Program-made: the position numbers and the translations under genes
Shown: positions 42,524 to 44,816 of the stretch, one piece after another
Numbering within the stretch: position 1 is the stretch's first letter
How the letters are laid out: each line of letters opens with the position of its first letter
DNA from: Escherichia coli
GTDB lineage: Bacteria; Pseudomonadota; Gammaproteobacteria; Enterobacterales; Enterobacteriaceae
Assembly: GCF_003018115.1 (NCBI RefSeq)
Contig: NZ_CP027457.1
Strand: one strand, 5' to 3'
DNA: 64,000 nucleotides
The notes under the pieces: model-generated
Databases searched by the model: none
What the model saw: only the letters and a program-made list of their open reading frames with translations
What the model was told of the DNA's origin: nothing

Positions 42524-43312
42524 TTATTTCAATTCGAGTTCGTTCATTGCAGCGATGCTGAAACCGCCGTCAACGTGGACCACTTCACCGGAGATACCGG
42601 CAGAGAGATCGGAGCACAGGAATGCCGCAGAGTTACCCACATCTTCAATAGTAACGGTACGGCGAATCGGGGTAACGGCTTCGCAATGAGCCAGCATTTT
42701 GCGGAAGTCTTTGATACCGGAGGCCGCCAGAGTACGGATCGGACCAGCAGAGATGGCGTTAACACGCACACCTTCCGGACCCATCGCGTTCGCCATATAG
42801 CGCACGTTCGCTTCCAGAGACGCTTTTGCCAGACCCATAACGTTGTAGTTCGGGATAGCGCGCTCAGCGCCAAGGTAGGAAAGGGTCAGCAGGGCAGAAC
42901 CCGGATTCAGCATGGAGCGGCAAGCTTTTGCCATTGCAACGAAGCTGTAGGAGCTGATGTCGTGGGCAATTTTGAAGCCTTCACGGGTAACGGCGTTAAC
43001 ATAGTCACCATCCAGCTGATCGCCAGGTGCAAAACCAATAGAGTGTACGAAACCGTCAAATTTCGGCCAGACTTTACCCAGTTCAGCGAACATGGTGTCG
43101 ATGCTGGCATCTTCTGCAACATCGCACTGCAGAACGATGTCAGAACCCAATTGAGCGGCAAATTCTTCTACGCGGCCTTTCAGTTTGTCGTTCTGGTAGG
43201 TGAATGCCAGTTCAGCTCCTTCGCGGTGCATCGCCTGAGCGATACCGTAGGCGATGGACAGTTTGCTGGCAACACCGGTTACCAGAATGCGCTTACCGGA
43301 AAGAAAACCCAT
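42524..43312 (-). CDS. fabI: Enoyl-ACP reductase (NADH)
   Basis: 262 aa, [28 protein letters not shown]... Confidence 0.95.
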
Positions 43313-43422
43313 AGCTTTAATCCTTATTGTTGATGCTTGTTGTGCCTGAAAATCAGGCGATTCGTTGTTTAAATAAACAGTACGAACAGATAAACAGTTA
43401 TTATAATCAACCTGGCTGTGAG

Positions 43423-43620
43423 TGGCTATAGCTGCCAGGTCCGACCGGAGCAGGGTGCGGGCAGGGTGGGCGCTATTCCCCTCACCCTAACCCTCTCCCC
43501 AGAGGGGCGAGGGGACCATATTGTGCAAATATTGTTACCCCAGCAACAAACAGGCTCATACAGCCCCCTAACCCTTTCAGGGAGAGGGTTGGGGTGAGGG
43601 TGACAGGCGGTTCAGTTCCT
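43423..43620. repeat. Pair of inverted intergenic repeat units (ccctctcccc...gaggggcgagggg type)
   Basis: cctcaccctaaccctctccccagaggggcgagggg at about 43480-43520 and its near reverse complement at about 43562-43610. Confidence 0.5.
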
Positions 43621-43942
43621 GCAGAATAATCTCCAGCACCGCCACCTCATTACAATCAATCTCGTTATTCCAGAAACGCAGCACAGTCCAGCCCTGCGAC
43701 TCAAGCCAGCTAGTGCGCCTGGAATCATAGGCAACTGCCAAATCATGCTGCCCACCATCCAGCTCAACGACTACACGCGCCGAGCAGCAAGCAAAATCGA
43801 GAATGTAGCTCCCCACCGGATGTTGACGGCGAAATTTGAAATCACCAAAACGTCGGCTGCGAAGATATCGCCAGAGCTTTCGTTCCTGCAAAGTGAGATT
43901 GCGTCTTAAATCACGCGCATTTGATTTTATTTTATCCATCAT
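43577..43942 (-). CDS. ycjD: DUF559 endonuclease-like protein YcjD
   Basis: 121-aa ORF whose last ~13 codons (LSPSPQPSP) lie inside the repeat unit. Confidence 0.7.
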   Translation of the reverse strand: MMDKIKSNARDLRRNLTLQERKLWRYLRSRRFGDFKFRRQHPVGSYILDFACCSARVVVELDGGQHDLAVAYDSRRTSWLESQGWTVLRFWNNEIDCNEVAVLEIILQELNRLSPSPQPSP

Positions 43943-44009
43943 CTCATTCTGACAAGATTTAATCTCTTGTCAGAATGAGATGAATAATCTGGAAGGAGGA
44001 TTCAGAAAA

Positions 44010-44816
44010 TTAGCGATCTTTACGCCATGCATCCGCCGTCAATGCCTCGCCAAAATGACCGGCAATCAGCCGTTTGGTGAGTTCATGCAGCGGCGATGCC
44101 AGCACATCCGCGGTGCTGCCTCGCTCGACAACCTCGCCCTGATGCATCACCAGCACCTGGTCGCTAATGTGCTTCATCATTCCGATATGCTGGGTAACAT
44201 AAATATACGAAATGCCCTGTTTTTCCTGTAATTCCAGCATCAGATTAATCAACTGCGAACGCATCGACATATCCAGTGAAGCGAGGGCTTCATCGGCAAT
44301 AATGACTTTTGGGCGCAATATCAGCGCGCGCGCCAGACCCAGACGCTGTTTTTGCCCGGGGGCCAACATATGCGGATAGTAACTGACGTGATCCGGTAGC
44401 AGCCCAACCATACGCATCGTTTCAATAATCTGTTTGCGACGCTGTTCCGGTTCCAGGTTGGTGTTCAGGCGCAGTGGAAAATCCAGGATTTGCGAGATAC
44501 GTTGACGGGGATTCAACGAGGTCGAAGGATCCTGAAAAATCATGCGAATACGCTGACTGCGGAAGGAATAATCGCCAAAATGCAGTGGATGATCGTCAAT
44601 CAATAACTCGCCGCTGGTAGGTTCTATCATTCCCGCCAGCATTTTTGCCAGCGTGGATTTACCCGAACCATTCTCGCCAATAATCGCCAGTGTCTGGCCT
44701 TCACGTAGCGTAAAGCTCAAGGGTTTTACCGCTTCTACGGTCTGGCGACGAAACCAACCGGTCCGGTAGCGGAACGTTTTACTTAAATTACGCACTTCAA
44801 GCAGCGTTTCGATCAT
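44010..44816 (-). CDS. sapF: Peptide ABC transporter ATPase SapF
   Basis: 268 aa; Walker A GENGSGKST. Confidence 0.9.
   Translation of the reverse strand: MIETLLEVRNLSKTFRYRTGWFRRQTVEAVKPLSFTLREGQTLAIIGENGSGKSTLAKMLAGMIEPTSGELLIDDHPLHFGDYSFRSQRIRMIFQDPSTSLNPRQRISQILDFPLRLNTNLEPEQRRKQIIETMRMVGLLPDHVSYYPHMLAPGQKQRLGLARALILRPKVIIADEALASLDMSMRSQLINLMLELQEKQGISYIYVTQHIGMMKHISDQVLVMHQGEVVERGSTADVLASPLHELTKRLIAGHFGEALTADAWRKDR

What the first reader, a model, noticed from the sequence alone, without database searches (positions are those of the whole stretch)
43423..43620. Inverted pair of intergenic repeat units supplying the C-terminus of ycjD
Two copies of a ccctctcccc...gaggggcgagggg-type unit lie in opposite orientation between fabI and ycjD, and the last ~13 codons and stop of the ycjD ORF (..LSPSPQPSP*) are encoded inside one unit. 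The protein end is therefore repeat-derived and may differ between strains.
Basis: seen in the sequence. Interest (0 to 1): 0.25.

Follow-up and report, generated by a model that had tools for sequence, protein, structure and literature searches.

The report
BoxC repeats capping a nuclease gene
The two inverted units are known E. coli BoxC (triplex-motif) repeats, one of which encodes the last seven codons and the stop of the DUF559 nuclease gene ycjD; the same repeat brackets DUF559 genes in many bacterial groups, which points to a candidate partner enzyme for a repeat family that has had no known function.

Summary
U1 (43478-43513, minus) is identical to catalogued K-12 BoxC/PIT/TMECO copy #9. 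U2 (43566-43600, plus) fits the TMECO pattern with one mismatch. U2 encodes the last 7 codons (PSPQPSP) and the TGA of ycjD (43577-43942, minus), beyond the end of the DUF559 domain.

The tail varies between strains. K-12-type strains have a 117-aa protein after loss of one 12-nt G block. At least 193 of 5426 genomes keep the 3-block, 121-aa form. The window allele is a rare 119-bp deletion between two direct repeat copies. Other alleles reach 134-160 aa. About 38% of genomes lack the whole cassette.

The overlap is not local chance. YcjD homologues at 45-68% identity carry the same DNA motif at the same junction, read in two different frames. In 80 loci from many groups a strict motif starts 0-19 nt after the domain end in 38, and an inverted copy lies just upstream of the start in 27. 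In Neisseria the gene sits inside a motif array.

Gene and repeat therefore form one conserved unit, resembling REP/RAYT but with a Vsr-like nuclease. I found no report of this link. That the nuclease acts on the repeat is inference only.

The parts
43478..43513 (-). U1: BoxC / PIT / TMECO unit, type A with one mismatched triplet (loop 2 = TTA)
   Evidence: Its reverse complement is identical to TMECO no. 9 of K-12 (sequence). As single-stranded DNA it folds at -12.4 kcal/mol, z=-3.2. The 65-nt query containing U1 has a median of 16 places per E. coli genome.
43514..43565 (.). Spacer between the two units. On the minus strand it holds a weak terminator-like hairpin (43566-43552, followed by GTTTGTTGCT) just after the ycjD stop.
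   Evidence: The spacer is conserved in K-12-type strains.
43566..43600 (+). U2: type-B-like TMECO unit, CCCTAACCC-TTTCA-GGGAGAGGG-TTG-GGGTGAGGG. In this strain it is a hybrid: left part from a degenerate upstream copy, right part from the copy fused to ycjD.
   Evidence: In Type I strains (L088, L089) the two direct copies lie 119 nt apart. The window retains the left end of one and the right end of the other, joined in the shared CCCTTTCAGGG.
43577..43942 (-). ycjD, a 121-aa DUF559 (Vsr-like PD-(D/E)XK) protein. Codons 115-121 (PSPQPSP) and the TGA stop lie inside U2.
   Evidence: ORF. Pfam PF04480 E=1e-47, residues 4-111. NCBIfam NF007294. RefSeq annotation of the identical strain F9792. 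PDB 3HRL E=3e-40.
43931..43982 (.). Perfect 19-bp-stem palindrome overlapping the ycjD start codon. The CTCATTCTGAC leader motif in it is shared with DUF559 cassettes of other Enterobacteriaceae.
   Evidence: DNA fold -20 kcal/mol, z=-9.4. Leader comparison.
43436..44009 (.). The whole variable segment (ycjD cassette): G-rich stretch, U1, spacer, U2, ycjD and leader. It is present in 62% of E. coli genomes and replaced by a 7.5-kb efflux island in others.
   Evidence: Left junction. Right junction at the sapF stop. Island content. Frequency.
43400..43428 (-). fabI promoter-like site (TAGCCA-17-TATAAT) immediately outside the variable segment
   Evidence: a consensus match only.

Best explanation
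SHOWN:
- The two units are copies of the known E. coli BoxC / PIT / TMECO repeat, a G/C-rich motif of one C block and two G blocks that forms an intrastrand triplex in vitro.
- U1 is the catalogued K-12 copy no. 9.
- U2 is fused to the 3' end of ycjD. The DUF559 domain ends at residue 111. The reading frame then runs into the two G blocks (read as PSPQPSP) and stops at a TGA in loop 1.
- The tail is a by-product of a conserved DNA element, not a selected peptide. In homologues the same DNA (CCCTCACCC-NNN-CCCTCTCCC) is read in two frames (PSPxPSP or PHPxPLP) with essentially fixed codons, or the loop itself supplies the stop.
- Differences between strains arise by recombination inside the repeats. 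One is a 12-nt, 4-codon slippage between the two direct G blocks (121 vs 117 aa). Another is a 119-bp deletion between two direct units through an 11-nt shared core, which produced the window allele. There are also breakpoints inside U1 and read-through fusions.
- Gene plus repeat is one conserved genetic unit. In many bacterial groups a motif in one orientation lies just upstream of the DUF559 start codon and an inverted copy overlaps its C-terminus. In Enterobacteriaceae a B unit lies over the stop and an A unit 12-122 nt downstream. The unit sits in non-syntenic places in different genera.

INFERRED (about 0.4): the DUF559 nuclease acts on these motifs, as its recognition or cleavage site or its terminal repeats. 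The arrangement would then work like REP/RAYT (a resident nuclease gene bracketed by the repeat that is dispersed through the genome), and this activity would underlie the genome instability reported at TMECO sites.
For: Identity with BoxC/TMECO. Copy number: median 16 places per E. coli genome.

Tail outside the domain.

Allele series in E. coli. Database variants of 117-160 aa.

Conservation of the tail: 78 of the 120 best homologues contain PSPxPSP, 56 of them as the last residues.

One DNA motif in two reading frames, codons essentially fixed.

The 80 genome loci:
- A strict motif starts 0-19 nt after domain codon 111 in 38 loci.
- An inverted motif ends within 130 nt upstream of codon 1 in 27 loci.
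- Either is present in 55 of 80 loci.
- Density is 3.5 per kb next to the gene against 0.08 per kb elsewhere in the same loci.
- Near-perfect inverted flanking copies are visible in L024, L044, L057, L087 and L043.

Independent test: the Neisseria gene, a relative of PDB 3HRL with no PSP tail, lies inside a motif-containing repeat array, with a motif-like unit ending 20 nt before its ATG. Published counts for Neisseria genomes are only 1-6 TMECOs.

Genomic position: no locus from another genus lies next to fabI or in the fabI-sapF interval (one, L011, has only a distant ABC-ATPase match at 28% identity), and 8 of 11 enterobacterial loci share a different site. A common 5' leader is present across non-syntenic loci.

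Nuclease fold and invariant D49, E60, D62, H66.

TMECO-linked instability with unknown mechanism: PMC4666352.

DUF559 genes are 14-fold enriched among CDSs overlapped by inverted repeats: PMC9881135.

TMECO counts per strain are 18-30 in the K-12, B and B1-type strains, and the ycjD carriers I checked fall in or near that range: K-12 23, REL606 20, 042 13 (presence). They are 10-11 in O157:H7, one strain of which I checked and found to lack the ycjD segment. They are 1-2 in the CFT073/UTI89 group, whose ycjD status I did not test.
Against: No experiment links YcjD to BoxC.

25 of the 80 loci have no strict motif, among them most of the loci from AT-rich Gastranaerophilales/Melainabacteria genomes.

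The 80 loci and the 120 homologues were ranked against a query that includes the tail. This inflates the share with a 3' motif. The upstream motif and the Neisseria case are free of this bias.

K-12 BoxC doublets contain no DUF559 remnant in their 16-28 nt gaps. No target-site duplication was seen.

O157:H7 lacks the ycjD segment yet keeps 10-11 TMECOs, so the repeats persist without the gene.

The correlation between strain groups rests on very few independent losses.

Earlier work found no promoter, terminator or in vivo replication effect of PIT elements, and no triplex footprint in vivo.
Confidence: 0.72

Rival explanations
1. Chance juxtaposition. BoxC is merely an abundant intergenic structural repeat that happened to land on the ycjD 3' end in E. 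coli. The tail is neutral and there is no relation between gene and repeat.
For: BoxC copies flank all kinds of genes with no functional bias (PMC4666352). The tail lies outside the domain. The K-12 allele has a truncated unit.
Against: The same junction (motif starting 0-19 nt after the domain end) recurs in 38 of 80 loci from several bacterial classes at 45-65% protein identity. An inverted copy lies upstream in 27 loci. Enrichment next to the gene is 44-fold over the rest of the same loci. The Neisseria gene sits inside the motif array.
Confidence: 0.05
2. The repeat serves ycjD expression. The hairpin at the stop codon would act as a transcription terminator or a 3' mRNA stabiliser, as REP elements do, and is conserved for that reason.
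For: U1 and U2 fold into stable hairpins. They sit at the gene's 3' end, upstream of the fabI promoter-like site. REP elements stabilise upstream mRNA (general knowledge).
Against: There is no T-run after U1 or U2, and the terminator scan lists neither; it reports only a weak hairpin in the spacer. PIT elements showed no terminator activity in earlier tests (cited in PMC4666352). A terminator role does not explain the inverted copy upstream of the start codon, sequence conservation across phyla far above that of the protein, or the many copies without a DUF559 gene.
Confidence: 0.1
3. An autonomous selfish cassette. Motif-DUF559-motif (about 450-480 bp) would be a minimal mobile element: either IS-like with 36-40 bp terminal inverted repeats, or a free-standing homing-endonuclease gene that targets BoxC doublets. 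Solo units and doublets would be its MITE-like derivatives or its empty targets.
For: Flanking inverted copies with the ORF running into one of them, as in many IS elements. Non-syntenic locations and two copies in some genomes: L030/L032, L057/L079, L055/L063, L036/L070. A remnant of a second DUF559 3' end lies beside ycjD in K-12. There is a weak sequence relation to the Vsr-like homing endonuclease I-Bth0305I (3R3P, E=0.006). K-12 tail-to-tail doublets have the same orientation as the motifs that bracket the gene.
Against: The gene is single copy at one fixed site in 3377 E. coli genomes. 8 of 11 enterobacterial loci are syntenic, which indicates mostly vertical descent. There are no target-site duplications, no known transposase domain, and no DUF559 remnants in K-12 doublets. 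Motif copies outnumber genes by 20 to 140 to one.
Confidence: 0.2
4. YcjD is an ordinary very-short-patch mismatch-repair nuclease paired with some cytosine methyltransferase. The repeats accumulate beside it only because the locus is a recombination hotspot.
For: DUF559 proteins are Vsr-like, and a Caulobacter DUF559 protein behaves as a Vsr-type enzyme linked to a methyltransferase (PMC12907096). The fabI-sapF interval is highly variable.
Against: There is no methyltransferase gene next to ycjD in the window. A hotspot in E. coli does not explain the fixed gene-motif junction in unrelated genomic contexts and phyla.
Confidence: 0.1

Closest known systems
BoxC / PIT element / TMECO (Bachellier et al. 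1990s; Hoyne et al. 2000; Holder et al. 2015, PMC4666352)
   Same: U1 is identical to the catalogued K-12 copy no. 9. U2 fits the pattern with one mismatch. The pair is an inverted type A plus type-B-like pair, as at five K-12 loci. The locus shows the rearrangements reported around TMECO sites.
   Different: The published description says the motif is always intergenic and not associated with mobile or other specific genes. Here one unit supplies 7 codons and the stop of ycjD, and the motif systematically brackets DUF559 genes. The truncated 2-block K-12 unit at the ycjD stop is not in the published list.
REP / REPIN with RAYT (TnpA-REP) systems
   Same: A usually single-copy nuclease gene is flanked by inverted copies of a short structured repeat. 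That repeat is dispersed through the genome as singlets and inverted doublets. Inheritance is largely vertical, with occasional relocation.
   Different: The enzyme is a Vsr-like PD-(D/E)XK nuclease, not an HUH tyrosine transposase. The repeat is a three-block triplex motif, not a GTAG- or CGTC-tagged palindrome. No activity on the repeat has been shown. Here the ORF itself runs into the repeat.
DUF559 / Vsr-like endonucleases (PF04480; PDB 3HRL; E. coli Vsr 1CW0; homing endonuclease I-Bth0305I 3R3P)
   Same: Full-length Pfam match, 3HRL at E=3e-40, and invariant acidic and histidine residues (D49, E60, D62, H66).
   Different: No substrate is known for YcjD. Similarity to Vsr and to I-Bth0305I is only marginal by sequence (E=0.73 and 0.006). 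There is no intron or intein context and no adjacent methyltransferase.
IS elements and MITEs
   Same: Terminal inverted repeats of 36-40 bp bracket one small ORF that extends into one repeat. Gene-less inverted doublets occur elsewhere in the genome.
   Different: No DDE, HUH or serine/tyrosine recombinase is present. No target-site duplications were found. The gene is not multicopy.

Membership tests
BoxC / PIT / TMECO repeat | Sequence pattern CCCTCNCCC N3-6 GGGNGAGGG N3 GGGNGAGGG (one mismatch allowed) | tested here: met
   U1 is identical to TMECO no. 9. U2 fits with one mismatch, CCCTAACCC.
BoxC / PIT / TMECO repeat | Dispersed in many copies in E. coli genomes | tested here: met
   The 65-nt U1 query finds 77,246 places, median 16 and maximum 27 per genome. 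A copy at tktB-ypfG was inspected. There is no other copy in the 64-kb window.
BoxC / PIT / TMECO repeat | Always intergenic (as stated by Holder et al.) | tested here: not met
   U1 is intergenic. U2 overlaps 24 nt of the ycjD CDS, i.e. 7 codons and the stop. This contradicts a published generalisation rather than the sequence definition.
BoxC / PIT / TMECO repeat | Inverted pairs combine a type A unit (loop 2 TTA) with a type B unit (loop 2 CCG-like) | tested here: met
   U1 has loop TTA. U2 has loop TTG, while K-12 B units have CCG, TCG or CTG. The pair is head to head, like K-12 pair 17+18.
BoxC / PIT / TMECO repeat | Forms an intrastrand triplex | not testable with these tools
   Only the Watson-Crick hairpin could be computed. 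In vitro evidence is in PMC4666352.
DUF559 (PF04480), Vsr-like PD-(D/E)XK nuclease | Full-length match to the family profile above the curated cut-off | tested here: met
   160.8 bits against a cut-off of 20.6, model positions 2-109 of 109. NCBIfam NF007294 at 263 bits against 218. 3HRL at E=3e-40.
DUF559 (PF04480), Vsr-like PD-(D/E)XK nuclease | Nuclease activity | not testable with these tools
   Only conservation of D49, E60, D62 and H66 across 24 homologues is shown.
REP / RAYT (REPIN-RAYT) system | Nuclease gene flanked by inverted copies of the dispersed repeat | tested here: met
   An upstream motif in 27 of 80 loci, a C-terminal inverted motif in 41, both in 13 by strict pattern. Examples are shown.
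REP / RAYT (REPIN-RAYT) system | The enzyme is an HUH Y1 transposase (TnpA-REP) | tested here: not met
   Pfam gives only DUF559 and MTES_1575, both of the PD-(D/E)XK clan. It is therefore not a member, only an analogue.
REP / RAYT (REPIN-RAYT) system | Typically one gene copy per genome against many repeat copies | tested here: met
   ycjD has 1 place per genome in 3377 genomes. BoxC has a median of 16.
IS element / MITE | Terminal inverted repeats plus target-site duplication and a recognised transposase | tested here: not met
   Inverted repeats are present. No direct duplication was seen at the outer edges on inspection of L024, L043, L044, L057 and L087. There is no transposase domain.
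Intrinsic terminator | G+C-rich hairpin followed by a T-run | tested here: not met
   The scan lists neither U1 nor U2, only a weak 5-bp hairpin in the spacer.
Known RNA families (Rfam 15) | Match at or near a family's gathering score | tested here: not met
   Only far sub-threshold microRNA-type hairpin hits were found.

The most novel reading that the evidence does not exclude
BoxC/TMECO triplex motifs are the non-autonomous partners of the DUF559 Vsr-like nuclease. This would be a second type of 'dispersed repeat plus resident nuclease' system, mechanistically different from REPIN/RAYT and spread over many bacterial phyla. In it, YcjD-type enzymes would recognise or nick the motif. One possible recognition feature is the conserved mismatched position of the common 'A mm' units. 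This activity would drive the motif's spread, maintenance and the associated genome rearrangements.
Probability: 0.35. Interest if true: 0.8.

Novelty: new variant of a known kind. Interest (0 to 1): 0.5.

Why it matters
BoxC/PIT/TMECO has been catalogued in E. coli since the 1990s. No function, origin or partner protein is known for it. Its link to genome instability was reported with the mechanism described as unclear.

ycjD is an uncharacterised K-12 gene, and DUF559 is a very large nuclease family with no known role.

A DUF559 gene and this motif form one conserved unit across phyla. That finding gives both orphans a concrete hypothesis that can be tested at the bench: does YcjD cut or bind BoxC?

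It also explains several annotation oddities. These include the PSPxPSP, PHPxPLP and GEG tails on DUF559 proteins, the variable protein lengths, and the enrichment of DUF559 among predicted inversion targets.

If the functional link fails, the result is still useful. It is a clean case of a protein C-terminus written by a repeat and remodelled by slippage and recombination within a species.

Tried and rejected
- Rfam scan of 43200-44100: only spurious microRNA-like hairpin hits, so no known RNA family.
- Other copies in the 64-kb window: none.
- Dispersed fragments of the ycjD 3' end accompanying BoxC in E. coli: none; ycjD is single copy.
- DUF559 remnants in the K-12 BoxC doublets and solo B units at hrpB-mrcB, fepB-entC, ygfF-gcvP, alx-sstT, lldD-trmL, yagA-yagE and xynR-argF: none. 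Gaps are 16-28 nt in the four tail-to-tail pairs and 59 nt at lldD-trmL.
- Occupied versus empty site at the enterobacterial hemW-like...yggN locus, using E. coli as the empty state: not comparable, because E. coli does not have the two flanking sequences adjacent.
- Target-site duplications at the outer edges of motif-DUF559-motif units (inspection): none convincing. The inverted repeat sometimes extends 4-5 nt beyond the motif.
- Terminator role: no T-run.
- Defence-system membership (PADLOC): none.
- Literature: no paper in the searchable library links DUF559 with BoxC, PIT or triplex motifs. The library lacks most subscription journals, so prior description cannot be excluded.
- Prediction that Neisseria homologues carry the PSP tail: false, 0 of 120. 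However, the motif array surrounds the gene there.

Full report
WHAT IS IN THE WINDOW

The region is E. coli and is 100% identical to strain F9792. All genes lie on the minus strand:
- yciW
- fabI, 42524-43312
- ycjD, 43577-43942
- sapF, 44010-44816
- sapD

Two G/C-rich units lie between fabI and ycjD.
- U1 is 43478-43513. Its reverse complement, CCCTCGCCCCTCTGGGGAGAGGGTTAGGGTGAGGGG, is identical to entry 9 of the published list of 23 'TMECO' motifs of K-12 MG1655. That entry is placed between fabI and ycjD (PMC4666352, Table 1 and Table S2).
- U2 is 43566-43600, CCCTAACCC-TTTCA-GGGAGAGGG-TTG-GGGTGAGGG. It fits the published pattern CCCTCNCCC N3-6 GGGNGAGGG N3 GGGNGAGGG with one mismatch.

According to that paper, the motif is the one earlier called BoxC and later PIT (potential intrastrand triplex) element.

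The units are inverted, head to head and 52 nt apart. There is no other copy in the 64 kb. A 65-nt query containing U1 finds a median of 16 places per genome in 5425 of 5426 complete E. coli genomes. Rfam has nothing for the region.

THE ycjD END

YcjD is 121 aa here. The Pfam DUF559 domain covers residues 4-111 and matches the model end to end. The frame then continues into U2:
- codons 115-121 (PSPQPSP) are the two G blocks and loop 2 read on the opposite strand;
- the TGA stop is the TCA of loop 1.

So 7 codons plus the stop are repeat-encoded, not about 13.

VARIATION WITHIN E. COLI

Five arrangements were read directly.

- Type I (CE0007a, 118UI). The order is U1, spacer, a degenerate unit U2', a roughly 60-nt remnant of a second DUF559 3' end, a full 3-block unit U3, then ycjD. 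The K-12 version of the remnant translates as ..GENMETVLENIRQGLN, against YcjD ..CNEETVLENILQELN. The protein is 121 aa.
- Type II (K-12, 042, SCU-308). As Type I, but U3 has lost one 12-nt block plus loop, giving 117 aa ending ..RRSPSP*. The surviving block is GGGAGAGGG in K-12 and SCU-308 and GGGTGAGGG in 042. This fits slippage between the two direct G blocks at different points.
- Type III (this window, F9792). A 119-bp deletion between U2' and U3 through the shared CCCTTTCAGGG. U2 is therefore a hybrid unit. Only 9 records match the 348-nt region at 99% or better.
- Type IV (strain 135). A breakpoint inside U1, followed by unrelated DNA.
- Type V. Everything from 43436 to the sapF stop is replaced by a 7.5-kb TetR/RND/outer-membrane/MFS efflux island.

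Frequencies: ycjD is present, single copy, in 3377 of 5426 genomes. The 3-block junction is present in at least 193. Protein databases also hold 134-160-aa variants that read through the repeats, the remnant and the spacer. This is the kind of instability reported around TMECO sites.

THE OVERLAP IS NOT A LOCAL ACCIDENT

Homologues of YcjD from Enterobacter, Kluyvera, Klebsiella, Lelliottia, Phytobacter and other genera are only 60-68% identical. Nearly all of them end in PSPRPSP*. Of the 120 best hits, 78 contain PSPxPSP and 56 end with it.

At the DNA level the conserved element is CCCTCACCC-NNN-CCCTCTCCC.
- It is read as PSPxPSP in some genes and one base out of frame as PHPxPLP in others.
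- The Pro and Ser codons are essentially fixed.
- In some genes loop 2 itself is the stop codon.

The constraint is therefore on the DNA, not on the peptide.

A scan of one genome per species returned 80 loci. They come from Enterobacteriaceae, other Gamma-, Beta-, Alpha- and Deltaproteobacteria, Elusimicrobia, Planctomycetes and Melainabacteria. With a strict three-block pattern:
- a motif starts 0-19 nt after domain codon 111 in 38 loci;
- an inverted motif ends within 130 nt upstream of codon 1 in 27 loci;
- at least one is present in 55 of 80 loci;
- density next to the gene is 3.5 per kb, against 0.08 per kb in the rest of the same 576 kb.

In L024, L044, L057, L087 and L043 the two flanking motifs are near-perfect inverted copies. 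The neighbouring genes begin immediately outside them, giving a compact unit of 450-480 bp.

Enterobacteriaceae use a variant layout: a B unit over the stop and an A unit 12-122 nt downstream. They also share a 5' leader, consisting of a CTGGAAG...CTTCCAG hairpin and CTCATTCTGAC.

Caveat: the loci and homologues were ranked against a query that includes the tail. This favours genes with a 3' motif. The upstream motif is not affected by this bias.

AN INDEPENDENT TEST

Published counts give Neisseria genomes only 1-6 TMECOs. The solved DUF559 structure 3HRL is from N. gonorrhoeae. I fetched a N. meningitidis homologue.
- It has no PSP tail; none of 120 Neisseria-clade homologues does.
- The gene lies in the repeat array downstream of carA.
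- Four strict motifs and several degenerate inverted ones occur within 1.5 kb.
- One of them ends 20 nt before the ATG.

So even where motifs are rare, they sit at the DUF559 gene.

INHERITANCE

No locus from another genus lies next to fabI or between fabI and sapF. The only sapF-like matches are distant ABC-ATPase hits (28-29% identity) in L011 and L072.

Eight of the 11 enterobacterial loci share a different site, next to yggN. Kluyvera, Enterobacter sp. Ag1 and [Erwinia] mediterraneensis each differ again. Some genomes carry two copies.

The pattern is mostly vertical descent with occasional relocation. In K-12 a remnant of a tandem second copy survives.

MECHANISM

Shown: what the repeat is, the structure of the tail, the recombination events that create the alleles, and the conserved gene-plus-motif unit.

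Inferred: that the nuclease acts on the motif.

The protein has the Vsr-like PD-(D/E)XK fold. PDB matches are 3HRL at 3e-40, the homing endonuclease I-Bth0305I (3R3P) at 0.006, and Vsr (1CW0) at 0.73. D49, E60, D62 and H66 are invariant.

The closest working analogy is REP/RAYT: a resident, usually single-copy nuclease gene bracketed by inverted copies of the repeat that is dispersed as singlets and inverted doublets. K-12's four tail-to-tail doublets have the same relative orientation as the motifs that bracket DUF559 genes elsewhere.

It is not a member of that family, because the enzyme is not an HUH transposase.

Consistent but weak evidence comes from published TMECO counts per strain:
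- 18-30 in the K-12, B and B1-type strains. The ycjD carriers I checked fall in or near that range: K-12 23, REL606 20, 042 13 (presence).
- 10-11 in O157:H7. The one O157:H7 strain I checked lacks the ycjD segment.
- 1-2 in the CFT073/UTI89 group, whose ycjD status I did not test.

These differences are confounded by phylogeny.

AGAINST THE FUNCTIONAL LINK

- There is no experimental evidence.
- 25 of the 80 loci have no strict motif.
- K-12 doublets hold no DUF559 remnant.
- No target-site duplications were found.
- The repeats persist in O157:H7 without the gene.
- Earlier studies found no in vivo role for PIT elements.

KNOWN OR NEW

The repeats, and U1 at this exact site, are already known. 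I did not find any description of:
- the overlap with ycjD (the published account calls the motif 'always intergenic');
- the allele series;
- the systematic bracketing of DUF559 genes.

The searchable literature was checked. The nearest hint is an unexplained 14-fold enrichment of 'DUF559 domain-containing protein' among CDSs overlapped by inverted repeats (PMC9881135). Most subscription journals are not searchable here, so prior description cannot be excluded.

VERDICT

The object is a known repeat family in a newly recognised relationship with a nuclease gene. Interest is moderate (0.5): low for the E. coli polymorphism alone, higher for the testable link between BoxC and DUF559.

Noticed in passing
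window 43436-44009, compared with L004/L007 (NZ_CP023815.1): The whole ycjD cassette is one of two alternative fillings of the fabI-sapF interval. About 38% of complete E. coli genomes lack it. The one such genome I read in full (IMT16316) carries a 7.5-kb TetR / RND adaptor / RND pump / outer-membrane factor / MFS efflux island instead. The junctions lie just upstream of the fabI promoter-like site and at the sapF stop codon.
   Followed up: partly
window 43931-43982: A perfect palindrome with 19-bp stems (z=-9.4) overlaps the ycjD start codon and carries promoter-like hexamers on both strands. Half of it (CTCATTCTGAC) is the conserved leader of DUF559 cassettes in other Enterobacteriaceae. 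A related hairpin follows sapF in the efflux-island strain. It could occlude the ycjD start in read-through transcripts from sapF.
   Followed up: partly
window 43453-43472: The G-rich stretch GGGTGCGGGCAGGGTGGGCG just outside U1 looks like two degenerate G blocks facing U1's C blocks. It may be a decayed partner unit.
   Followed up: no
L090 (NZ_CP080260.1) 1060-1100: In strain 135 homology with the window ends inside U1, after loop 1. Unrelated DNA encoding DUF4942 proteins follows. This is a rearrangement breakpoint within a BoxC unit.
   Followed up: no
L058 4330-4900; L017 4330-4560: Downstream of the DUF559 gene of [Erwinia] mediterraneensis there are at least six tandem repeats of about 103 bp, each carrying a triplex motif. 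Pseudocitrobacter faecalis has a similar tandem array of longer (about 74-bp) units carrying a single G block. The motif can therefore amplify in tandem next to the gene.
   Followed up: no
L097 900-2500 (N. meningitidis, downstream of carA): The Neisseria DUF559 gene, a relative of PDB 3HRL, lies within a tandem array of roughly 275-290-bp repeats. Each repeat holds a strict motif and a degenerate inverted one (CTCTCTCCC-CGT-GGGAGAGAG-TTA-GAGAGAGGG).
   Followed up: partly
L091-L096 (K-12 BoxC doublets): Type A units carry a conserved flank of about 14 nt beyond the 36-nt motif (GAC[CT]G....GAG[CT][AC]C). The B-gap-A doublets at ygfF-gcvP and alx-sstT are homologous across the gap as well. 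The repeated unit is therefore the roughly 100-bp doublet rather than the single motif.
   Followed up: no
L043 3861-3920 and 4400-4470: In a Hydrogenophilaceae MAG the motif-DUF559-motif unit is itself flanked on both sides by a second repeat (..GGGAGAGGGTTGGGGgcggagatgtttggacgatctaac..). This suggests tandem or nested cassettes.
   Followed up: no
literature: PMC9881135, table of enriched gene families: 'DUF559 domain-containing protein' (14-fold) and 'Endonuclease domain-containing protein' (9.6-fold) are enriched among predicted programmed-inversion targets. The inverted triplex motifs overlapping these genes would explain this without any programmed inversion.
   Followed up: no
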